Shown here: one piece after another, positions 681-55,441 of the stretch
Layout: every line of letters begins with the position of its first letter
Position numbering within the stretch: position 1 is the first letter of the stretch
From: Mobula hypostoma
Taxonomy: Eukaryota
DNA: 64,000 nt
Assembly (NCBI RefSeq): GCF_963921235.1
Contig: NC_086108.1
Span: 66,156,001-66,220,000 of the forward strand
Direction: 5' to 3'
Made by a program: the position numbers and the translations under genes
The notes under the pieces: generated by a model
What the model was told of the DNA's origin: nothing
The model's input: only the letters and a program-made list of their open reading frames with translations
The model's database searches: none

Positions 681-2017
681 AACCATATAACCATATAACA
701 ATTACAGCACGGAAACAGGCCATCTCAACCCTTTTAGTCCATGCTGAACTCTTACTCTCATCTAGTTCCACCGACCTGCACTCAGCCCATAACTCTCCAT
801 TCCTTTCCTGTCCATATAGTTGTCCAATTTAACTTTAAATGACAACATCGAACCTGCCTCAACCACTTCTGCTGGAAGCTCGTTCCACACAGCTACCACT
901 CTCTGAGTGAAGAAGTTCCCCCTCATGTTACCCCTAAACTTTTGCCCTTTAACTCTCAACTCATGTCCTCTTGTTTGAATCTCCCCCACTCTCAATGGAA
1001 AAAGCCTATCCACATCAACTCTATCAATCCCCCTTATAATTTCAAACACCTCTATCAAGTCCCCCCTCAACCTTCTATGCTCCAGAGAATAAAGACCTAA
1101 CTTGTTCAACCTTTCTCTGTAACTTAGGAGATGAAACCCAGGCAACATTTTAGTAAACCTCCTCTGTATTCTCTCAATTTTATTGACATCTTTCCTATAA
1201 TTTGGTGACCAGAACTGTACACAATACTCCAAATTTGGCCTTACCAATGCCTTAGACAATTTCAACATTACATCCCAACTCCTATACTCAATGTTCTGAT
1301 TAATAAAGGCCAGTAGGCCGAAAGCTTTCTTCACCGCCCTATCCACATGAGATTCCACCTTCAGGGAACTATGCACCATTATTCCTAGATCCCTCTGTTC
1401 TACAGCATTCTTCAATGCCCTACCATTTACCATGTATGTCCTATTTTGATTAGTCCTGCCAAAATGTAGCACCTCACATTTTTCAGCATTAAACTCCATC
1501 TGCCATCTTTCAGCCCACTCTTCTAACTGGCTTAAATCTCTCTGCAAGCTTTGAAAACCTACTTCATTATCCACAGCGCCACCTATCTTAGTGTCATCTG
1601 CATATTTACTAATCCAATTTACCACCCCATCATCCAGATCATTAATATATATGACAAACAACATTGGACCCAGTACAGATCCCTGAGGCACACCGCTACA
1701 CACCGTCCTCCAATCTGACACACAGTTATCCACCACTACTCTCTGGCGTCTCCCATCTAGCCACTGCTGAATCCATTTTACTACTTCGGTATTAATGCCT
1801 AACGATTGAATCTTCTTAACTAAGCTTCCGTGTGGAATCTTGTCAAAGGCTTTACTGAAGTCCATATAGACAACATCCACCGGTTTACCTTCGTCAACTT
1901 TCTTAGTAACCTCATCAAAAAATTCAATAAGATTTGTCAAACATGACCTTCCACGCACAAATCCATGTTGACTGTTCTTAATCAGACCCTGTCTATCCAG
2001 ATAATTATATATACCAT
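681..2017 (-). mobile_element. Young 5'-truncated CR1-clade LINE (RT region plus 3' UTR)
   Basis: RT motifs SQHGF, YMDFSKAFD, GVPQGSVLGP, YADD and the CR1 C-terminal RGHELRV..FFTQRVV..WN.LP. The 3' end is a TTATATGG-type tandem tail at about 681-698. Confidence 0.95.
762..2017 (-). pseudogene. CR1 ORF2 reverse transcriptase, C-terminal about 418 codons with no stop or frameshift
   Basis: This is the part of ORF 762..2255 from GIYNYLDRQGLIKNSQHGF to the stop. The N-terminal part of that ORF is unrelated flanking DNA. Confidence 0.9.
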
Positions 2018-2063
2018 ATGATTTATGAAAATCTATAATTAAACAAAGATTGATAAACGACCA

Positions 2064-2498
2064 ACACACATCAAACTTGCTGGTGAACGCAGCAGGCCAA
2101 GCAGCATCTGTAGGAAGAGGTGCAGTCGACGTTTCAGGCTGAGACCCTTTGTCAGGACTAACTGAAGGAAGAGTGAGTAAGAGATTTGAAAGTTGGAGGG
2201 GGAGGGGGAGATCCAAAATGATAGGAGAAGACAGGAGGGGGAGGGATAGAGCCAAGAGCTGGACAGGTGATAGGCAAAAGGGGATACGAGAGGATCATGG
2301 GACAGGAGGTCCGGGAAGAAAGACAAGGGGGGGGGTCCCAGAGGATGGGCAAGAGGTATATTCAGAGGGACAGAGGGAGAAAAAAGAGAGTGAGAGAAAG
2401 AATGTGTGCATAAAAATAAGTAACAGATGGGGTACGAGGGGGAGGTGGGGCCTTAGTGGAAGTTAGAGAAGTCGATGTTCATGCCATCGGGTTGGAGG
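2064..2498 (-). mobile_element. Penelope-like element 3' end / pseudo-LTR
   Basis: Close reverse complement of about 6345-6785. Includes the end of the GIY-YIG region (..QPDGMNIDFSNF), a pyrimidine-rich tract and a hammerhead motif. It interrupts the host sequence GACCA|ATGTGC. Confidence 0.8.
2124..2159 (-). ncRNA. Minimal hammerhead ribozyme of Penelope pLTR, probably inactive (G8 to A)
   Basis: Minus strand reads AGUC CUGACAA A GGG UCUCAG CCU GAA ACGU C GACU. Stem I AGUC/GACU is intact, but the core reads CUGACAA instead of CUGANGA. Confidence 0.7.
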
Positions 2499-3747: not shown

Positions 3748-4125
3748 GAATCAGACTCAGGTTTATTATCACCGGCAGTTGATGTGAAATTTGTTAACTT
3801 GGCAGCAGCAGTTCAAAGCAATACATAATCTAGCAGAGAGAAAAACAATAAAAATAATAATAACAAATAAACAAGTAAATCAATTACAGTATATGTATAT
3901 TGAATCAATTAAAAATATGTGCAAAAACAGAAATACTGTATATTAAAAAAGTGAGGTAGTGTCCAAAAATTCCATGTCCATTTAGGAATCAGGTGGCAGA
4001 GGGGAAGAATCTGTTCTTGAATTGCTGAGTGTGAGCCTTCAGGCTTCTGTACCTCCTGATGGTAACAGTGAGAAAAAGGCATGCCCTGGGTGCTGGAGGT
4101 CCTTAATAATGGATGCTGCCTTTCT
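3748..4125 (-). mobile_element. Rex/Babar-type LINE 3' UTR remnant
   Basis: Starts GAATCAGACTCAGGTTTATTATCACCGGC, the same family end as 10876-11250. Confidence 0.7.
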
Positions 4126-6787: not shown

Positions 6788-7261
6788 TATTATTGTCACA
6801 TGTTCTGAGGTACAGTGAGAAAATGGTCCTGCATACCATCCATATAGATCAATTCATTACAAATGTGTGCTGAGGTAGTGCAGAATAAAGTGTTACAGTA
6901 CAAAGTGCAGCGCAGGTAGACAGTATAATGCAAGGTCACAGTGATGTTAAGTCCATCTTATCATGCTAGGGAAACATTCAAAAGTGTTATAATAGCAGGA
7001 TAGAAGGTGCCATTGAGGCTGGTGGTACAGGCTTTCAGGCTTTTGTATCTGCTGCCCATTGGGAGAGGGGGAAGAGAGAATATATGGGGAGGGTGAGATC
7101 TTTGATTATGCTTAGTGCTTTACTGAGGCAGTGAGAAGTGCACACAGAGTCCATACTGGGGAGGGTGATTCCTGTGATGTGCAGAGCTCTGTCCACACCA
7201 TTCCTGCAAGCATGGACAGAGCAATTGCCATACCAAGTCATGATGCATCTGGTTCATGATG

Positions 7262-8225
7262 CAACTGGGGCTCCACAGGGGACTGTCTTGTCTCCCTTTC
7301 TCTTCACCATTTACACATCGGACTTCAACTACTGCACAGAGTCTTGTCATATTCAGAAGTTTTCGGATGACTCTGCCATAGTTGGATGCATCAGCAAGGG
7401 AGATGAGGCTGAGTACAGGGCTACGGTAGAAAACTTTGTCACATGGTGTGAGCAGAATTATCTGCAGCTTAATGTGAAAAAGACTAAGGAGCTGGTGGTA
7501 GACCTGAGGAGAGCTAAGGTACCGGTGACCCCTGTTTCCATCCAGGGGTCAGTGTGGACATGGTGGAGGATTACAAATACCTGGGGATATGAATTGACAA
7601 TAAACTGGACTGGTCAAAGAACACTGAAGCTGTCTACAAGAAGGGACAGAGCCGTCTCTATTCCTGAGGAGACTGAGGTCCTTTATCATCTGCCGGACGA
7701 TGCTGAGGATGTTCTACGAGTCTGTGGTGGCCAGTGCTATCATGTTTGCTGTTGTGTGCTGGGGCAGCAGACTGAGGGTAGCAGAAACCAACAGAATCAA
7801 CAAACTCATTCGTAAGGCCAGTGATGTTGTGGGGATGGAACTGGACTCTCTCACAGTGATGTCTGAAAAGAGGATGCCGTCTAAGTTGCATGCCATCTTG
7901 GTCAATGTCTCCCATCCACTACATAATGTACTGGGTGGGCACAGAAGGACATTCAGCTAGAGACTCATTCCACCGAGATGCAGCACAGAGCGTCATAGGA
8001 AGTCATTCCTGCCTGTGGCCATCAAACTTTACAACTCCTCCCTCGGAGGGTCAGACACCCCGAGCCAATAGGCTGGTCCTGGACTTATTTCATAATTTAC
8101 TGGCATAATTTACATATTACTATCTAACTATTTATGGTTCTATTACTATTTATTATTTGTGGTGCAACTGTAACAAAAAACAATTTCCCCCGGTATCAAT
8201 GAAGTATGACTATGACTATGACTAT
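7262..8225 (+). mobile_element. Rex1-type LINE, 5'-truncated, with (TATGAC)n tail
   Basis: GAPQGTVLSPFLFTIYTSD, KFSDDSAIVG, LQLNVKKTKELVVD, MLRMFYESVVASAIMFAVVCWG. Tail at about 8205-8225. Confidence 0.9.
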
Positions 8226-22514: not shown

Positions 22515-25292
22515 CAAGTATGATGTAGGAATAACAGAGACATGGCTGCAAGAGGACCTGGGCTGGGAAATGAATATTCAAGGGTATACATCCTGTCGAA
22601 AGGACAGACAGGTCGGCAGAGGGGGTGGGGTGGCTCTGTTGGTGAGGAATGAAATTCAGTCCCTTGCGAGGGCGACATAGAATCAGGAGATGTAGAGTCA
22701 GTATGGATAGAACTGAGAAATTGTAAGGGCAAAAAGCCCCTAATGGGAGTTATCTACAGGCCCCCAAATGGAAGCCTGGATATAGGGTGCAAGTTGAATC
22801 AAGATTTAAAATTGGCATGTTGCAAAGGTAATGCTATGGTTGTTATGGGGGATTTCAACATGCAGGTAGACTGGGAAAATCAGGTTGGTACTGGACCCCA
22901 AGAAAGGGAGTTTGTGGAGTGCCTCCAAAATGGATTCTTAGAGCAGCTTGTATTGGAACCTACCAGGGAGAAGGCAATTCTGGATTTAGTGTTGTGTACG
23001 GAACCAACTTTGATAAGGGAACTCGAGGTAAAGGAGCCATTAGGAGGTAGTGACCATAATATGATAAGTTTTAATCTACAATTTGAGAGGGAGAAGGGAA
23101 AATCGGAAGTATCTGTGTTACAGTTGAACAAAGGGGACTATGGAGCCATGAGGGAGGAGCTGGCCAAAGTTGACTGGAAAGATACCCTAGCAGGGATGAC
23201 AGTGGAACAACAATGGCAGGAAATTCTGCGAATAATACAAAGGTGCAGGATCAGTTCATTCCAAAGAGGAAGAAAGATTCTAAGGGGAGTAAGGGGCGAC
23301 CGTTCTGACGAGGGAAGTCAAGGACAGTATAGAAATAAAAGAGAAGAAGTATAACATAGCAAAGATAAGTGGGAAGCCAGAGAATTAGGAAACTTTTAAA
23401 GAGCAACAGAGGATACTTAAAAAGGCATTACAGGGAGAAAAGATGAGATACGAAGGCAAACTACCCAAGAATATAAAGGAGGATAGTAAAAGCTTCTTTA
23501 GGTATGTGAAAAGGAAAAAATTAGTTAAGACCAACGTTGGGCCCTTGAAGACAGAAACGGGTGAATTTTTTATGGGGAGCAAGGAAATGGCAGATGAGTT
23601 GAACAGATACTTTGGATCTGTCTTCACTAGGGAAGACACAAACAATCTCCCAGATGTAATAGTGGCCGGAGGACCTAGGGTAACAGAGGAACTGAAGGAG
23701 ATTCACATTAGGCAGAAAATGGTGTTGGATAGACTGATGGGACTGGAGGCTGATAAATCCCCAGGGCCTGATGGTCTGCACCCTAGGGTACTTAAGGAGG
23801 TGGCTCTAGAAACCGTAGACGCATTGGTAATCATTTTTCAGTGTTCTATAGATTCAGGATCAGTTCCTGAGGACTGGAGGGTAGCTAATGTTATCCCATT
23901 CTTTAAGAAAGGAGGGAGAGAGAAAACAGGGAATTATAGACCAGTTAGCCTGACATCAATGGTAGGGAAGATGCTGGAGTCAATTATAAAGGATGAAATA
24001 GTGACACATCTGGATAGCAGTAACAGGATTGGTCTGAGTCAGCATGGATTTACGAAGGGGGAATCATGCTTGATTAATCTTCTGGAATTTTTTGAGGATG
24101 TAACTATGAAAATGGACAAGGGAGAGCCAGTGAATGTAGTGTACCTGGACTTTCAGAAAGCCTTTGATAAGGTCCCACATAGGAGATTAGTGGGCAAAAT
24201 TAGAGTACATGGTATTGGGGGTAGGGTACTGACATGGATAGAAAATTGGTTGGCAGACAGAAAACAAAGAGTAGGGATTAACAGGTCCCTTTCACTAATT
24301 GGATACTGCAAGGGTCGGTGCTGGGACCGCAGCTATTTACAATCTACATTAATGATTTAGATGAAGGGATTAAAAGTAACATTACCAAATTTGCAGACGA
24401 CACAAAGCTGGGTGGCAGTGTGAAATGTGCGGAGGATGTTGTGATAATGCAGGATGACTTGGACAGGTTGGGTGAGTGGACAGATGCAGTTTAATGTGGA
24501 TAAATGTGAGGTTATCCATTTTGGTGGCAAGAACAGGAAGACAGATTACTATTTGAATGGTGTCAAGTTAGGAAAAGGGGAAGTACAACAAGATCTAGGT
24601 GTCCTTGTTCATCAGTCACTGAAAGTAAGCATGCAGATACAGCAGGCATTGAAGAAAGCTAATGGTATGTTAGCCTTCATAACAAGGGGAGTTGAGTATA
24701 GGAAGAAAGAAGTCCTTCTGCAGTTGTACAGGGCCCTGGTGAGACCACACCTGGAGTATTGTGTACAGTTTTCATCTCCAAATGTGAGGAAGGACATTCT
24801 TGCTATTGAGGGAGTACAGCGTAGGTTCACGAGGTTAATTCCTGGGATGGCGGGACTGTCACATGTTGAAAGATTGGAGCGACTGGACTTGTATACACTG
24901 GAATTCAGAAGGATGAGAGGGGATCTGATTGAAACATATAAAATTATTAAGGGATTGGACACGCTAGAGGCAGGAAACATATTCCCGATGTTGGGAGAGT
25001 CCAGAAGTCCAGAACCAGAGGCCACAATTTGAGAATAAGGGGTAGGCCATTTAGAACAGAGTTGAGGAAAAACTTTTTTACCAGAGAGTTGTGGATCTGT
25101 GGAATGCTCTGCCTCAGAAGGCAGTGGAGGCCAATTCTCTGGATGCTTTCAAGAAAGAGTTAGATAGAGCTGTTAATGATAGCGGAGTCAAGGGATATGG
25201 AGAGAAGGCAGGAACGGGGTACTGATTGTGGTTGATCAGCCATGATCACAGTGAATGGTGGTGCTGGCTCGAAGGGCCGAATGGCCTACTCC
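22515..25292 (+). mobile_element. CR1-clade LINE with nearly complete but frameshifted ORF2 (APE endonuclease plus RT) and 3' UTR
   Basis: ITETW, GVIYRPPN, MGDFN, LGGSDHN (APE). KSPGPDGLHP, NYRPVSLTS, QHGF, LDFQKAFDKVPH, FADD (RT). (CTATTGT)n tail at about 25277-25292. Confidence 0.95.
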
Positions 25293-44775: not shown

Positions 44776-45275
44776 TATTTTAACATGCATCATATTTAAT
44801 TCATAGTCATACTTCTTTCCAACAAAGTGGGGGGGGGGCATTCAACCATCAACACTATGCCAGTTCTCAGATTAATCCTCCCAATTTCATTGCCACACTA
44901 ACTGCCCTATTTCTTCCCAGATGCACAACACACTCCGCCCACACAACTAATTCTCCTTCCACCCTCCTACACAAGAGGTAGTTTACAACAGCCAACAAGT
45001 CTAACAACAAGATGTTGCTATGATCCTGAGTAAAATCTGAAGAACCAAAGGGTCATGTGGTCTCAAGGAGAACAAATAAGTTCAGCACACAGGTCTGGAG
45101 ATCAGGATCAAATCCAGATCTCCGGAGCAGTGAGGCAGGGGGATGAACTAATACACTATTGTGCAACACAATGGACAATTCATCTAAACCAACAAGTTAT
45201 TCCTACAGAGATATTTTATAAGATTAATAGGGTTACAAAATACACATGGACTGAGATGTTAACTGTCCTGTGCTA

Positions 45276-45394
45276 TCACCAGTGGGATCATCAGTTGATC
45301 TGCCACCTGTCTTCAGGAGTTTCGGCCCGCTTATGATCAAGACTCCCTCGAGGTGGTGGGCCAGCAGTGCTAAAGCATCACCTCCCACTGGTGA
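45276..45394 (-). ncRNA. Candidate non-circularly permuted hammerhead ribozyme in the HERO-type 3' UTR
   Basis: All core nucleotides are present (GUC^ at 45343-45341, GAA-A at 45323-45320, CUGAUGA at 45294-45288). Helices: I UUGAUC/GAUCAA, II GGCCC/GGGCC, III GGAGU/ACUCC, plus CCACCU/AGGUGG and a 12-bp closing helix. Confidence 0.75.
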
Positions 45395-45516
45395 GCTTAA
45401 AAACTTGGCATCTGCCTCTATCAGAGTTGTTGGTCACTTCCATCCAACAGATAGTCTGCTCTTCAGGTGTCTATGCAACTACTGAAGGGTTTGCAAAAGA
45501 TGTATACACTGTCTGA

Positions 45517-46320
45517 CTATCTGCCCCTCTGGACATACTTGGTCCATACCCATGCTGATCCTTTTTCTGCTGCTTCAGCTACAGCCCTGCTGGTTGACTT
45601 GATCTCTCTTCTAATGAAGCCAAGGTCACGCAGCCACTTCTGAAGAGTGAACGCAATAAACCCACGGCAGCCTGCTTCGAATGGATAGCATGAGACCATC
45701 CACCCTCTGTCTCTGCACTCTGATCTTAATTCTGCATACTTGGTTAATTTGCGCTCATGGGCTTCATCGATGTTGTCTTCCCTGGGGACTGTGAGTTCAC
45801 CAATAACCACTTCTCTACTGGTTTCAGACCATACGATTATGTCTGGAAGCAATGTTGTGAAAGCTATTTGCTCCGGGAAACTGCCTTTCCCATCCAGGTC
45901 GGCCTTGACATACCAATCACTGGCTGAAGAAAGTATGCTTGATTGTGAGCCTGTGCTGTACACCCTTGACTTGGAGCCCTCTTTCACAAATGATATGCTA
46001 TGTTCTGTGCAGCATGGGGCATGAGATAAGTTGTGCTGCAGTACTCTCTGCTCATCACCTTCTGTTACAACTTTAAGAATGTTGTTACGTCTCCAAGTAT
46101 ACATGCCGCTGGAAAGATTGACTCTGCATGCACTCAAAATATGTTGAAGTGTTCCCTTCTTGCCACAAGCAGCACACCTGTCTGTCTTATCTTCATACCA
46201 GGTGCTAGGGTTGGCAGGTGTTGGGAGCAGATCGTACGCTGCTCTGCATAGAAAAGAAATGTGGAGCGGTTCCATCTGCCACAGAACATTCCAAGATAGA
46301 TGTTGTTGTTCAACACTCAC
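45517..46320 (-). pseudogene. C-terminus of the HERO-type ORF: CCHC zinc knuckle plus restriction-like (PD-(D/E)xK) endonuclease
   Basis: LWQMEP..ISFL.RA.YDLLPTP.N; C..CG..GTL.HILS.C; YTWR(H/R)N; PDIIVWS..ELTVP(W/R)ED..AHERK..KY; P(F)EAGCRGF. Substitutions at the usual RHN and VPWE positions suggest decay. Confidence 0.88.
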
Positions 46321-47189
46321 CCACCGGGTCCAAGCCCCTTGTTTGGCCAGACCAACTGTTTTAGCTAACCTCTTCTCCTCTTCTACCTCTCGTATTTCTT
46401 GTGTTACAAGCTCACGGCGCTCCTTACCTGTAGAAGATGACCACCACTTGTGGGTTGTTCATCCAATATATTAATGTTAGTTAGATTAAAGTATGCATTG
46501 AATGTAAATGAAAGATTATAACATTTTAAGCCTTTAAATTGTGCTTATTATGACCACATTTGAAAGACCTATATGCCTTAAGATAGGCCTGAAATGATGC
46601 AGAAAAATATCAATTCTGCTTTCAGTACCAGGCTTAATATAGAATGACTAATTAGCAAAGAATTGTGATCTCATAGTGATCCGCGTAATTTAAATAGCAA
46701 TATTTAAATAGCAAAGTCAACTCTGCAGATGGTCAACTGGAATACATGAGGATCATATGAAATAACAATCATCCATTGGAGATTGATGGAAATAAGTAAA
46801 CAATATTGAGTTGCTGTGTGATCATAAATGGATCCTAGATGGAAATAGTATATGAGTAAACCATCTATCATTTTATTTGAAATGTAGGACTGCTATCAGT
46901 TTTCATTTTGTTGCACACTCAACGCTAATTAAAGCAGTCATTCCATACAAATGTATAACCTTATCATTAGGAGAGAGGATGCTGACATGTTTAATGACCA
47001 TATGGAATTTATCACCATTCAAAATCAGCAAGGCAATGTGAATCCAAGACGTGATACTAAAAAAAAGTACATCAGCAGAGAATTTGATACATGTTCCTGC
47101 CCCAATCATTGAATGAAACATGGAGAACGAAATAGCCAATTCATCCTCTGGAAACTGAGAGATCAATCTTAAAACAGTGTGTGGAGAGT

Positions 47190-51802: not shown

Positions 51803-53217
51803 TGTCACAATGGGGGCATTGATGGTGGACCCAAATGCAAGACACAGACACTGAAGTACAAGGAACAGGACTTGACTAGAGTAGGGACGTGACAGGATAC
51901 AGACAAGGAGCAGGGACAAGAACACAGACTTGGGCTAGTACATGGACAAGACAGGGAACCTGGGCAAGGAACTATGCACAAGGAGCCTGGGCTTGGGCTC
52001 CGAGCCAGAGACTGGACAAGGACCCAGAACCTGGGTCTTGCCTCGGGCTCGGGCCCCAGAACGAGGGAAGGACATGACATGAATACAGGATAGGACGTGG
52101 CTGGGGTCTTGAGGCTTGGGGCTGCAGGCTGGGGTCTTGGTCTTGAGGCTTGGAGACAGGCCGTGGTCTTGAGGCTTGAGCTTGGAGACAGGCCGTGGTC
52201 TTGAGGCTTGAGCTTGGAGACAGGCCGTGGTCTTGGCTCTTCAGGCCTGCAGGCTGGGGTCTTGGCTCTTGGAATGCAGAGGCTGATAACTCGGAGTCTG
52301 GAGCTCGGAGACAGACTGGGAACTGTACATCAACGTAGAGCCGTGACTATCCTTAGGAAAGCCGGGACTCATCTTTAACACGACACCAACATGAGACTGG
52401 ACAGAACATAGACATAGAGCCGGGACTTATCCTTAGACAAGCCGGTCCTCAACTTTATCTCCACACCAGGGTGGGACAGGACCATCCATCGCGTAACGGC
52501 AGAATGACAAGACTTACCCAACAGAGGCAAAGACAAGACAACACAGGTCCCCCCACCCCGCAGGCCAACAGCAGAACGGACTGACTTACCCCACGGAGGA
52601 GAGGACAGGACAAGACAGGACAGATCCCCCCCACAGGGCAATGGCAGAACGGCCCGACTTACCCCACGGAGGCGAGGACAGGACAAGACAGATCCCCCCG
52701 CAGGGCAATGGCAGAACAGCCTGACTTATCCCATGGAGGTGAGGACAAGAGACAAACACCAAAGAACAACTGACAGTTCCATCTCTGCATCGGGGTTGCT
52801 CCGAGTCACAGTTCGGCCAGCAACCGTAGCTGGCTACAGAAACAACCGGATCCCTACCTAGCTTGGAGTGGCTGGTAGCCACTCAGATGGCCCAGGAAAC
52901 AGCCGAATCCATACCGCAAAGACAGCTCTGACTACCGACAGCAAGGCTCCATGAAGCAATGGTTCTCCAACAAGGCCTAAAGATGGCAAGTGGCCGCTCT
53001 AGCCTTCCACCGGCAGGTTACTCCCAGGAAATCTTGACAAGACAAACCAGCCACCCACACTCAACCCCAAGGCTACTTATATTCCAAGCCCCAAGATGGG
53101 AATCAGGTGCCTATGATTAACTCAATTAAAACAAGGGACAGCTGGAAGACCCGGAGTCCTGAGTCCATGGACTGGACCGTGAACAGGAATGCGGACTTCA
53201 CGGACCAGACCATGACA
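51803..53217 (-). mobile_element. Gypsy-like solo LTR (1415 bp)
   Basis: TGTCA...TGACA ends. Perfect 5-bp TSD GAGGT at 51798-51802 and 53218-53222. Minus-strand TATAAG near 53075-53081 and a TGCATTTGGGTCC U5-like end. Internal minisatellites. Confidence 0.88.
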
Positions 53218-53717
53218 GAGGTAATCATTTTGTTTATCACAGTTACCCTGTATAATGTATTACTAGTAGTGTGAAAGTATAGTGGTGATTAATAGACTTT
53301 TGTGAGGCAAGTATATGAAAGGATAAGGAAAAAATGTTGATAAGCAGAGTTGTTCTACAGATACTTTCTGATGCAATTGATCTCTTAAACAAGAGAGCTG
53401 ATTTGTCTGCTGCAATTTCATGTATTATGATGATTCAATTTGAGATAAAATTCCATTGCTTAGTGTATGAAAACCTGGGACTATGAGGTTTCATTTCTAT
53501 AACTTTGCTTCCTTGTTTTGGGTTATTTCTACATTTATCCTATATAAACCCTCTTCCGGTTAAACTACAAACAATTATACTAAATCACTCCTCCATCTCC
53601 TAAATTCAAAGAACATTAAGCCAAAGTTATGCAATTTGTCTTCAGAATTTAAGTCCCGGTGTTTTGGTGAGTTTGCACTGTATTGTCTTAAGAAGATCCA
53701 ACGAAAGGCACAGTTCA

Positions 53718-53875
53718 ACACACAAAATGCTGGAGGAACTCAGTAGGCCAGGCAGCATTTGTGGTACAGTCGACTATACTTTTTTTCCATAGATGCTGCC
53801 TGGCCTGCTGAGTTCCTCTAGCATTTCGTGTGTGTTACTCAGATTTCCAGCATCTGCAGAGTTTCTCTTATTTGT
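53718..53875. mobile_element. Fold-back Penelope pLTR mini-insertion with 15-bp TSD
   Basis: GAAAGGCACAGTTCA (53703-53717) and GAAAAGCACAGTTCA (53876-53890). The arms are inverted about 53771/53772. Confidence 0.88.
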
Positions 53876-54343
53876 GAAAAGCACAGTTCAGATGGAATCA
53901 GTCATAATTTCTGTGTCTTCTACCTTTGATATTTCAGCTCCCTAAAACTATGACCAATCATACATTTGCCTTGGGATTTCTTGCATGAGTTTTTAGCTAT
54001 TTGTTTTTATGGACATCTTATAGGCTCTCTGCAATCAAAAATGTGTCTACTTATGTTGCATGATCCAAAATAGATACATTTGCGATTCCCCACATTGGAT
54101 CTTACCCACCAGCCTTTATAACTCACAATATCCTTTGAATTCCTGCTCCGCTGTCACAATAGGGGTGTTGAGAACGGACCCAAATGCGAGACACAGGCAC
54201 TGAAGTACAAGGAACAGGTCCTGACTAGAGTAGGGGGACGTGACAGGATACAGGCAAGGAGCAGGGACAAGAAAGCAGACTTGGGCTAGGGAAAGCAGGA
54301 TCAGAACTAGGGATCATGGACTAGGAGACAAGGCTTGGACTCC

Positions 54344-54720
54344 GAGCCCAAGACTGGACAAGGACCCAGAACCTGGGTCTTGCCTCGGGCTTGGACCCCG
54401 GAACCAGGCAAGGACATGACATGGCTTCAGTACAGGACGTAGCTGGGGTCTAGAGGCCTGAGCTTGTAGACAAGACAAGGCTCAGATTCTGAGCCCGAGA
54501 CTAGACAAGGACCCAGAACCTGGGTCTTGCCTCGGGCTTGGACCCCGGAACCAGGCAAGGACATGACATGGCTTCAGTACAGGACGTAGCTGGGGTCTAG
54601 AGGCCTGAGCTTGTAGACAAGACAAGGCTCAGATTCCGAGCCCGAGACTAGACAAGGACCCAGAACCTGGGTCTTGCCTTGGGCTCGGACCCCAGAACCA
54701 GGCAAGGACATGACATGGCT
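54344..54720 (+). repeat. 147-bp tandem repeat, about 2.5 near-identical copies, inside the LTR
   Basis: Unit starts (GAGCCC.AGACT.GACAAGGACCCAGAACC) at 54344, 54491 and 54638. Confidence 0.9.
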
Positions 54721-55034
54721 TGAGGCTGGGTCTTGGGTGTTGAGCTTGGCTTGGGATCCTCGAGGCTTGGGATCTGGCATCTTGAGCATGGCTTGGGGTC
54801 TTGGGTCTTGAGCTTGGCTGCAGGCTGGGGTCAGAACCTGGGTCTTGCCTCGGACGCGGGCCCCAGAACCAGACAAAGACATGATATGGCTTGAGGCTGG
54901 GGGCTTGGGTCTGGAGCTTGGCTTGGGATCCTCAAGGCTTGGGGTCTCAGAGCTCGGCTTGAGGTCCGGGTCTTGGGTCTTGAGGCTCGGCTTGAGGCTG
55001 GGGTCTTGGGTCTTGAGGCTCGGCTTGAGGCTTA

Positions 55035-55441
55035 CAACACGCTGGAGGAACTCAGCAGGTCATGCAACATCCGTGAAAAAGATCGGTCGACGTTTCGTGC
55101 CGGAATCCTTCATCAGGACTGTAGAGGGAAGGGGCAGAGGCCCTATAAAGAAGGTGGGGGAAGGGTGGGAAGGAGAAGGCTGGTCAGTTCCAGGTGAAAA
55201 ACAAGTAAGGGGAAAGATAAAGGGGTGGAGGAGGGGAAGCAGGGAGGTGATAGGCAGGAAAGGTGAAGAAAGAATACGGGAAAACACAATGGGTAGTAGA
55301 AGGAGGTGGAACCAAGAGGGAGGTAGTAGGCAGTAGGCAGCTGGGGGAGGGTGCAGAGTGACATAGGGATAGGGGAAGGGAGGGGGAGGGAATTACCAGA
55401 AGTTGGAGAATTCTATGTTCACACCAAGGGGCTGGAGACTA
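55035..55441 (-). mobile_element. Penelope-like 3' end with hammerhead motif (55085-55120), nested in the LTR
   Basis: Minus strand AGUC CUGAUGA A GGA UUCCGG CAC GAA ACGU C GACC, a purine-rich tract, and the GIY-YIG terminus GAAGTTGGAGAATTCTATGTTCA. Confidence 0.8.

What the first reader, a model, noticed from the sequence alone, without database searches (positions are those of the whole stretch)
45276..45394. Scrambled (non-circularly permuted, pseudoknotted) hammerhead ribozyme in the 3' UTR of a HERO-type retrotransposon
Seen in sequence: the minus (sense) strand, about 120-240 nt after the ORF stop, reads UCACCAGUGGGA-GGUGAUGCUUUAGCACUGCU-GGCCC-A-CCACCU-CGA-GGGAGUC^UUGAUC-AUAAGC-GGGCC-GAA-ACUCCU-GAAGAC-AGGUGG-CA-GAUCAA-CUGAUGA-UCCCACUGGUGA. 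Every hammerhead core nucleotide is present and abuts the expected helix. Stem III is GGAGU/ACUCC (45346-45342 with 45320-45316). C17 is at 45341. Stem I is UUGAUC/GAUCAA (45340-45335 with 45300-45295), directly before CUGAUGA (45294-45288). Stem II is GGCCC/GGGCC (45362-45358 with 45328-45324), with the canonical G10.1-C11.1 pair next to GAAA. CCACCU/AGGUGG extends stem III, and a perfect 12-bp helix (45394-45383 with 45287-45276) opens the chain between A9 and G10.1. Established knowledge: types I, II and III are circular permutations of the order [UH]-[CUGANGA]-[GAAA]. Here the order is [UH]-[GAAA]-[CUGANGA], which standard descriptors would miss. Ribozymes known from RLE-type elements such as R2 are HDV-like and at the 5' end. 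Inference: this is a 3'-end processing or regulatory ribozyme of HERO elements. Non-circularly permuted hammerheads have been reported in general, so novelty for HERO needs a literature check.
Basis: partly seen in the sequence, partly recalled or inferred. Interest (0 to 1): 0.92.

Follow-up and report, generated by a model that had tools for sequence, protein, structure and literature searches.

The report
Rewired hammerhead ribozyme in jumping genes
The tail of a widespread family of R2-like jumping genes folds into a hammerhead self-cutting RNA wired in an order I found described nowhere, and it may let these elements cut, rejoin and copy their RNA as a circle, though cutting itself is not yet tested.

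Summary
Confirmed and extended. All helices and core words lie at the stated coordinates, in the 3' UTR of a 5'-truncated copy of a single-ORF RT + restriction-like-endonuclease retrotransposon. The fold recurs in 43 of 64 related 3' UTRs (35-46% protein identity; 0 of 3200 shuffles), with double-sided changes in stems I, II, III and the stem-III extension. A helix-only search put CUGAnGA in the right gap in 38 of 40 hits. It is not the published type-SGC hammerhead: it is SGC re-opened between A9 and G10.1, where two helices form a four-way junction, outside Eckert's six-permutation scheme. New here: a kink-turn-like loop in stem III, palindromic hairpin loops (19 of 32), and head-to-tail copies that put the ribozyme at both ends. 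Insertions read through the cut site, and none begins at it. Best reading: a real ribozyme (~0.88) whose cut ends stay clamped by 21-36 bp and rejoin, giving a circular template and more-than-unit copies (~0.5). Cleavage is untested. Ten literature searches found no report. The scan noted a similar motif in this genome before (e1-8034208) and called it a look-alike; my tests disagree.

The parts
45232..46461 (-). 5'-truncated copy (about 1.23 kb) of an RT + RLE non-LTR retrotransposon; family unit about 3.85 kb, family 3' end TAACTCT with no poly(A)
   Evidence: blastn to full-length copy L035, 93.5%; unit lengths 3841-3866; 3' ends
45517..46458 (-). C-terminal 313 aa of the ORF: CCHC zinc knuckle and PD..(D/E)xK-like restriction-like endonuclease; stop at 45519-45517
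   Evidence: (zf-RVT below its curated cut-off); motif name from my own knowledge
45383..45394 (-). P0, 5' strand (12 bp closing helix)
   Evidence: median pair probability 0.96 over 32 motifs
45363..45382 (-). P1 hairpin; its last base is linked directly to G10.1. In 19 of 32 related motifs the loop holds a palindromic hexamer; this family's loop does not
45358..45362 (-). Stem II 5' strand, G10.1 at 45362
   Evidence: 3 of 4 counted pairs change on both sides
45351..45356 (-). Stem-III extension, 5' strand; equivalent to the 'stem I-II interaction' helix of type SGC
45348..45350 (-). Non-bulged strand (C-GA) of a kink-turn-like internal loop
   Evidence: k-turn consensus from my own knowledge
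45341..45347 (-). Stem III 5' strand and GUC triplet; predicted cut between 45341 and 45340
45335..45340 (-). Stem I strand after the cut
   Evidence: 5 of 5 pairs change on both sides
45315..45328 (-). Stem II 3' strand (C11.1 at 45324), G12-A13-A14 (45323-45321), stem III 3' strand from A15.1 (45320)
45303..45314 (-). Bulged strand (GAA-GA-C) of the kink-turn-like loop and 3' strand of the stem-III extension
45288..45300 (-). Stem I partner strand and core C3-A9 (CUGAUGA, 45294-45288)
45276..45287 (-). P0, 3' strand, linked directly to A9
45232..45275 (-). 3' tail to the element end; in head-to-tail copies it runs straight into the 5' UTR of the next unit

Best explanation
A functional hammerhead ribozyme of a new connectivity, used by this RLE retrotransposon clade to turn more-than-unit transcripts into a unit-length, end-joined (circular) template. 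SHOWN: the conserved fold and core; zero-nucleotide links A9|P0, P0|P1 and P1|G10.1; head-to-tail copies with the ribozyme on both sides of the ORF; reverse transcription running through the cut site; the two repeats of one insertion share variants. INFERRED: P0, P1, stem II and the core form a perfect four-way junction in which P0 stacks on P1, so A9 and G10.1 sit side by side as if linked. The kink in stem III folds the extension back to the far ends of stems I and II. The RNA cuts itself after GUC (probability about 0.88). Because 21-36 bp (P0, II, extension, III) bridge the two products, the cut is a clamped nick. A transcript crossing two repeats is cut twice; the 3' half of the upstream ribozyme and the 5' half of the downstream one re-form one ribozyme on the monomer's own ends and are joined, by the ribozyme or a host ligase. 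Target-primed reverse transcription starts internally, 112 nt past the join, and can run more than once round, rebuilding the upstream repeat (probability about 0.55 given cleavage).
For: Fold in 43 of 64 UTRs, 0 of 3200 shuffles, across all major branches of the protein tree. On a structure-blind MAFFT alignment of 33 descriptor-chosen motifs, 87% of cells pair against 29-49% for slid partners, and 18 of 21 pairs change on both sides. A helix-only search hit 40 of 64 UTRs; the 38 parses scoring >=89 all have CUGAnGA in the 7-nt gap, 37 have GAAA, all have U16.1, H17 is never G, and position 7 varies; 0 of 128 shuffles hit. All three junction links are zero-length in 28 of 32 (the descriptor penalised gaps). 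An extra base at A9/10.1 is tolerated in published hammerheads (PMC4209133; SGC descriptors and oligos). Head-to-tail form: 30 of 30 loci fetched with a junction query (selected for it), 13 of 40 metagenome loci with >=400 nt downstream, one contig in run X1. 20 of 30 upstream repeats extend past the cut. Repeats of one insertion share non-CpG variants in 12 of 21 pairs against 4.5 by permutation, 0 of 10000. The same model was proposed for Penelope hammerheads (PMC4209133).
Against: No cleavage, ligation or circle was observed; only contigs, no raw RNA reads, were available. No 5' junction lies within 10 nt of the cut in 60 copies examined, so nothing records an in vivo cut. A 9-bp indel upstream of the cut differs between the two repeats in 4 of 15 insertions (one possibly misaligned), which one circular template cannot give. 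L143 lacks the cut site in both repeats (17-nt deletion) yet is more than unit length. Shared variants could also come from a recently homogenised tandem master copy or from gene conversion. R2-type RTs can jump templates (title of a reference seen), which also yields head-to-tail copies. No hammerhead with helices at A9/10.1 has been tested in the papers I read.
Confidence: 0.5

Rival explanations
1. Active ribozyme, linear template. It cuts read-through transcripts to make the 5' end of a unit RNA (as HDV-like ribozymes do for R2 and twister variants for Perere-3) and may aid translation of the uncapped RNA; head-to-tail copies arise by RT jumping between RNA ends, helped by RNA dimers.
For: Precedent (PMC6765202 passages; PMC8501958 abstract). 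10 of 30 upstream repeats begin 34-98 nt from the unit end, on the 3' side of the cut at 112, a higher density than upstream of it (RT stalling in the fold explains this equally). Discordant repeat pairs show two templates at times. Palindromic P1 loops in 19 of 32 against 3.7 expected.
Against: No 5' end at the cut (0 of 60 within 10 nt); 20 of 30 upstream repeats cross it, nearly all without a lesion. The 3' ribozyme copy of the same RNA would have to stay uncut.
Confidence: 0.22
2. Active ribozyme used as a switch or brake: cut RNA has lost the 3' tail and serves only as mRNA or is destroyed, uncut RNA is the template; protein binding, dimerisation or the other stacking form of the four-way junction sets the balance.
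For: Every insertion carries the uncut sequence; copies end 112 nt past the cut. L143 spread with the cut site deleted. In nested folding the window family has a competing 9-bp helix.
Against: Does not explain the regular head-to-tail structure or shared variants between repeats; the competing helix looked family-specific by eye (not counted).
Confidence: 0.16
3. Hammerhead look-alike that does not cut: a folded 3' recognition or protection element for the RT (the reading of earlier finding e1-8034208).
For: The strand after CUGAnGA is indeed held in P0 and cannot pair with the strand before GAAA (<=2 pairs in 28 of 32), so this is no ordinary SGC ribozyme. No in vivo cut is recorded. It lies where LINE proteins bind their RNA (own knowledge).
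Against: Stem II is supplied by another strand and covaries. All catalytic-core letters are kept, with the hammerhead's own free position 7 and non-G H17, when only helices are asked for; a binding site has no known need for this.
Confidence: 0.12

Closest known systems
Type-SGC non-circularly permuted hammerhead ribozymes (HRIMA-1 and variants; Eckert et al. 2023, PMC10085705)
   Same: Order S-G-C, two pseudoknots, short linker from stem I to stem II, and a helix joining the far ends of stems I and II. If A9 were joined to G10.1 the motif would be a closed-circle SGC.
   Different: Here block C is broken: A9 leads into P0 and G10.1 follows hairpin P1. SGC's two free ends are joined through a kink-turn-like loop. 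Eckert assumed blocks cannot be interrupted, and their descriptors need CUGAUGA(U)G followed at once by stem II. Their SGC RNAs come from metatranscriptomes, none from a known organism's genome.
Hammerheads of Penelope-like elements and retrozymes (Cervera and De la Pena 2014, PMC4209133)
   Same: Hammerhead in a terminal repeat on both sides of an RT ORF, head-to-tail copies, proposed circular template and more-than-unit reverse transcription; some carry an extra base before stem II.
   Different: Those are type I or minimal, often dimer-dependent, in GIY-YIG elements; this is a full monomer-competent double-pseudoknot fold in an RLE-type LINE.
5' HDV-like ribozymes of R2 and L1Tc; 5' twister variants of Perere-3
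   Same: Self-cleaving RNA that frees a non-LTR retrotransposon RNA from a longer transcript.
   Different: Different ribozyme classes at the 5' end, whose cut marks the 5' junction; here no junction maps to the cut and the motif is in the 3' UTR.
HERO-clade elements; Tetraodon polyprotein Q7T1J8 (recalled as Zebulon, recalled to form head-to-tail arrays)
   Same: 44% identity between the lancelet relative P0002 and Q7T1J8; motif-bearing loci flank Q7T1J8 in the tree.
   Different: No ribozyme reported for HERO in the papers searched. The Zebulon paper was not held; that name and its tandem arrays are from memory.

Membership tests
Hammerhead ribozyme (class) | Core C3-U4-G5-A6-N7-G8-A9 directly 3' of stem I | tested here: met
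   38 of 38 high-scoring helix-only parses; by eye U3 in L042 and L066, which the descriptor missed
Hammerhead ribozyme (class) | G12-A13-A14-A15.1 between stems II and III; N-U-H cut site with H not G | tested here: met
   GAAA 37 of 38, U16.1 38 of 38, H17 never G
Hammerhead ribozyme (class) | Stems I, II, III conserved by covariation, 10.1-11.1 pair next to GAAA | tested here: met
   10.1-11.1 is G-C in 29 and G-U in 4 of 33; double-sided changes in all four helices; R-scape not run
Hammerhead ribozyme (class) | A9 continuous with the 5' strand of stem II (0-2 nt between) | tested here: not met
   A9 enters P0; strand after A9 makes <=2 pairs with the strand before GAAA in 28 of 32
Hammerhead ribozyme (class) | Site-specific self-cleavage giving 2',3'-cyclic phosphate and 5'-OH | not testable with these tools
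   no raw reads offered
Types I, II, III hammerheads | Circular order S-C-G, three-way junction without pseudoknots | tested here: not met
   order is II5'-S-G-C; no Rfam match
Type-SGC hammerhead | Block order S-G-C with a helix joining the far ends of stems I and II | tested here: met
Type-SGC hammerhead | Intact block C (stem I-CUGAnGA-stem II) | tested here: not met
Kink-turn | 3-nt bulge followed by tandem G-A/A-G between two helices | tested here: inconclusive
   sequence pattern in exact register in 19 of 32, window included; the others have plain bulges or shifted registers; no shuffle control, no 3D test
RLE-type (R2-like) non-LTR retrotransposon | Single ORF with N-terminal zinc finger, RT, CCHC knuckle and C-terminal RLE | tested here: met
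   best PDB matches of relative P0002 are R2 proteins
HERO clade | Mostly no fixed target site | tested here: met
   unrelated flanks in 30 copies; clade description in PMC4640811
HERO clade | RT phylogeny with named HERO, NeSL, R2, R4, CRE references | not tested
   no named HERO reference was in hand; nearest named relative is Q7T1J8
Penelope-like element | GIY-YIG endonuclease, telomerase-like RT | tested here: not met
   RLE C-terminus, R2/L1-like RT; works like one, is not one

The most novel reading that the evidence does not exclude
A whole clade of autonomous R2-like LINEs replicates through ribozyme-made circular RNA, using a hammerhead connectivity outside the six-permutation scheme (core as one arm of a four-way junction, kink-turned stem III) that nicks and clamps rather than releases; in many families a palindromic loop with the 2+6+1 layout of retroviral dimer-initiation hairpins (layout recalled) pairs two RNAs and allows two-template copies.
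Probability: 0.33. Interest if true: 0.96.

Novelty: new variant of a known kind. Interest (0 to 1): 0.88.

Why it matters
It breaks the working rule that the hammerhead's three blocks cannot be interrupted, so genome-wide ribozyme searches have missed a class that here runs to about two thousand copies in one vertebrate-sized genome and spans divergent animal-type element families. It moves non-circularly permuted hammerheads from unknown RNA replicons into chromosomal DNA with a known carrier and dozens of covarying natural variants ready to test. It offers a testable cause for head-to-tail arrays in this RLE clade and would be, as far as my searches reach, the first hammerhead and first circular-template route for an autonomous RLE LINE, a group now mined for genome writing. 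A ribozyme that keeps both products clamped and accepts helices at A9/10.1 is also a natural scaffold for RNA circularisation and switches.

Tried and rejected
Rfam: nothing above chance in the window stretch or in 8 loci. Viral contigs: no relative. Ordinary SGC pairing: rejected. Reads: no RNA holder listed on record; four contig sets laid (three guessed RNA) cover the element but cannot show ends, and no pile-up of ends was listed. Target-site duplications: none obvious by eye in the window copy or 8 short copies. Deletions at the cut: 2 of about 20 independent deletion events span it against about 0.3 expected by my hand estimate; a weak hint, not used. I first read a second repeat family sharing the last 91 nt as a SINE and as evidence that the ribozyme is not needed for recognition; one search shows LTR-like direct repeats that captured the piece, so I dropped that argument. 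The L103 parse (score 67) is probably wrong but stayed in the 32. Rows left out: 15 of 79 loci had <200 nt after the match; 21 of 64 missed the strict descriptor, of which 16 look like decayed or variant copies by eye and 5 (L057, L059, L061, L063, L116) show no motif in the stretch printed; 45 parses were thinned to 32 at 80% likeness; of 25 repeat pairs tried, L132 and L145 gave no downstream match, L134 too little and L039 too short an upstream piece. Papers not held: the Zebulon paper, the RT-clade classification paper, the 2012 hammerhead review. No structure prediction or complex job was run; they do not bear on the RNA.

Full report
OBSERVATION. It begins 122 nt after the stop of a 313-aa frame (46458-45517) and lies in a 1.23-kb copy that matches a full-length copy at 93.5%. 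A descriptor for the proposed layout finds this site alone in the window and nothing in 20 shuffles on two strands. Rfam has no match.

THE CARRIER. The frame ends in a CCHC knuckle and a PD..E-type nuclease motif conserved in 17 aligned proteins (naming it RLE is my own knowledge). Of 126 longer relatives the closest are lancelet and metagenome proteins at 57-63%, then fish proteins near 42%. Near-full-length copies with frames up to about 1185 aa are in the same 3.48-Gb genome, with an N-terminal zinc finger. The best solved relatives of P0002 are R2 proteins. A 3' UTR query gave 1713 candidates, 40 scored at 97-100%. A 19-base tail pattern matches 1935 times, but 10 of 40 sampled hits belong to another repeat. 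Flanks are unrelated and there is no poly(A). This fits HERO as described in PMC4640811 (passages), but no RT tree with named references was made.

CONSERVATION. A metagenome scan gave 79 loci at 35-46% identity; 64 have at least 200 nt after the match. The strict descriptor hits 43 of 64, and 0 of 64 antisense, 0 of 64 ORF stretches and 0 of 3200 dinucleotide shuffles. Sixteen of the 21 misses look like decayed or variant copies by eye; five show no motif in the stretch printed. Hits fall on all major branches of a FastTree tree of the C-terminal region, including the branch of Ulp1-bearing proteins and the one holding Tetraodon Q7T1J8 (midpoint root, supports not shown). On a structure-blind MAFFT alignment of 33 motifs, 87% of cells pair, against 61% for column shuffles and 29-49% for slid partners; 18 of 21 pairs change on both sides. 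These 33 were chosen by the descriptor and relatives are not independent, so I ran a test without sequence words: helices and spacer lengths only. It hit 40 of 64 UTRs. The 38 parses scoring 89 or more all have CUGAnGA in the 7-nt gap, 37 have GAAA, all have U before the cut, H17 is never G and position 7 takes all four letters. The two low parses (60, 68) lack the core; 0 of 128 shuffles hit. The hammerhead's catalytic letters are thus kept exactly where the helices place them.

TOPOLOGY. Eckert et al. 2023 (PMC10085705; I read parts 1-6 of 8 of the text, supplement parts 1 and 8 of 42 and a term search) define blocks S, G and C, assume they cannot be interrupted, and validated type SGC in vitro. 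Here the order is also S-G-C, but the strand after CUGAnGA does not pair with the strand before GAAA (2 pairs or fewer in 28 of 32). It forms P0, and stem II's 5' strand follows hairpin P1 at the far 5' side. In 28 of 32 thinned motifs there is no unpaired base at A9|P0, P0|P1 or P1|G10.1 (gaps were allowed but penalised). Inference: P0, P1, stem II and the core make a perfect four-way junction; with P0 stacked on P1, A9 and G10.1 lie where a phosphodiester normally links them. That step tolerates an extra base in Penelope and viroid hammerheads (PMC4209133, passages) and in SGC descriptors. The stem-III extension has the same connections as SGC's stem I-II interaction helix, so the motif is SGC with its ends joined and re-opened inside block C. 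Eckert's descriptors could not match it. The joining loop has the kink-turn pattern (3-nt bulge, tandem GA) in 19 of 32, the window included; most others have plain bulges. A bend is what would bring the extension back to stems I and II. In nested folding P0, P1, extension and stem III have median pair probabilities 0.96, 0.94, 0.75 and 0.62, leaving I and II as pseudoknots. After a cut, 21-36 bp still bridge the products.

P1 LOOP. The central 10 nt of P1 hold a palindromic hexamer in 19 of 32 motifs, against 3.7 in shuffles and 0-1 in three other windows. Six different palindromes occur, often in a 2+6+1 loop, the layout I recall for the HIV-1 dimer-initiation hairpin. Kin share loops, so the count overstates independence, and the window's family lacks it. 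It suggests RNA dimers; untested.

PLACE IN THE LIFE CYCLE. Full-length copies are often preceded by part of their own 3' UTR, with a constant junction; units are 3841-3866 nt. In metagenome loci, 13 of 40 with at least 400 nt downstream carry the N-terminal part of the same kind of ORF on the same strand, L065 has two motifs 3722 nt apart, and one contig of run X1 holds the head-to-tail joint (RNA is a guess). The cut lies 112 nt before the unit end. In 30 insertions chosen for the junction, the upstream repeat starts 34 to over 1542 nt before the unit end; 20 extend past the cut and 10 start 34-98. Among 30 element copies from 40 of the first 52 pattern hits (4 already held and 8 members of close pairs skipped), 7 start at 79-171 and 23 run beyond about 250. 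None of the 60 starts within 10 nt of the cut. So the copied RNA is intact or rejoined there. The two repeats of one insertion share non-CpG variants in 12 of 21 pairs (4.5 by permutation, 0 of 10000), including an inversion and a 17-nt deletion, as if the upstream repeat were rebuilt from the same source as the downstream one. Against a pure circle: a 9-bp indel differs in 4 of 15 pairs (L127 may be misaligned), and L143 lacks the cut site in both repeats.

MECHANISM. Most likely (0.5): cut twice, ends clamped and joined, internal priming, more-than-unit copying, as proposed for Penelope elements. Rivals: linear template with template jumps (0.22), switch or brake (0.16), non-cutting recognition fold (0.12). 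That it cleaves at all I put near 0.88. Cleavage, ligation, circles, kink and dimers are inferred, not shown.

PRIOR WORK. Ten searches found no paper joining hammerheads to HERO or RLE elements, and only Eckert 2023 for type SGC since 2023. I saw passages of PMC6765202, PMC13580325, PMC5753468, PMC2684134 and bioRxiv 10.64898/2026.07.22.740005 (no 'HERO'), the abstract and outline of PMC8501958, and listings for the rest. The library lacks most subscription papers, Repbase Reports and Dfam notes, bioRxiv supplements are closed, and 40 of 42 parts of Eckert's supplement were only term-searched, so an unseen description is possible. The scan's note e1-8034208 found a similar motif in this genome, probably this family, saw correctly that the strand after the core is held in another helix, and concluded look-alike; the covarying stem II from a different strand and the helix-only test speak against that conclusion.

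VERDICT. Real, conserved, and a new variant of a known ribozyme class with a connectivity outside the published scheme, in a carrier not reported to have one. Interest 0.88.

Noticed in passing
L157, L158, L159, L162, L164, L169, L183, L185, L187, L188; L210-L213: A second repeat family: long (>730 bp) direct repeats about 4.1 kb apart with LTR-like ends that have captured the element's last ~91 nt in antisense; the core A6 is changed in 9 of 10 sampled copies.
   Followed up: partly
L042 and L066, 3' UTR: One family appears to carry U at core position 3 (U3 with G8) in both copies.
   Followed up: no
L069:2009-2118, L106:909-1020, L078:1655-1765: The bend in stem III is a 5-6 nt bulge on the opposite strand instead of a kink-turn; L049, L067 and L071 use a plain 3-5 nt bulge.
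   Followed up: no
window 45384-45350 (family majority): With G at 45378 the family can form a competing 9-bp helix between the P0/P1 start and the stem II/extension strand; a possible inactive fold.
   Followed up: partly
L182; L136 and L037: L182 is a 79-nt copy preceded by an inverted piece of itself; L136 (both repeats) and L037 share a short inversion in the 3' UTR.
   Followed up: no
L035:902-1200: The long frame of the full-length copy has no early in-frame ATG before the zinc finger, which hints at non-standard initiation as in R2.
   Followed up: no
window 762-2294 (-), 7135-7815 (+), 22653-24360 (+): Fragments of other non-LTR elements with RT and an apurinic-type endonuclease.
   Followed up: no
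window 52105-55032: GC-richer stretch with 26-147 nt tandem repeats and several short frames; the one frame scanned (54812-55333) has no Pfam match.
   Followed up: no
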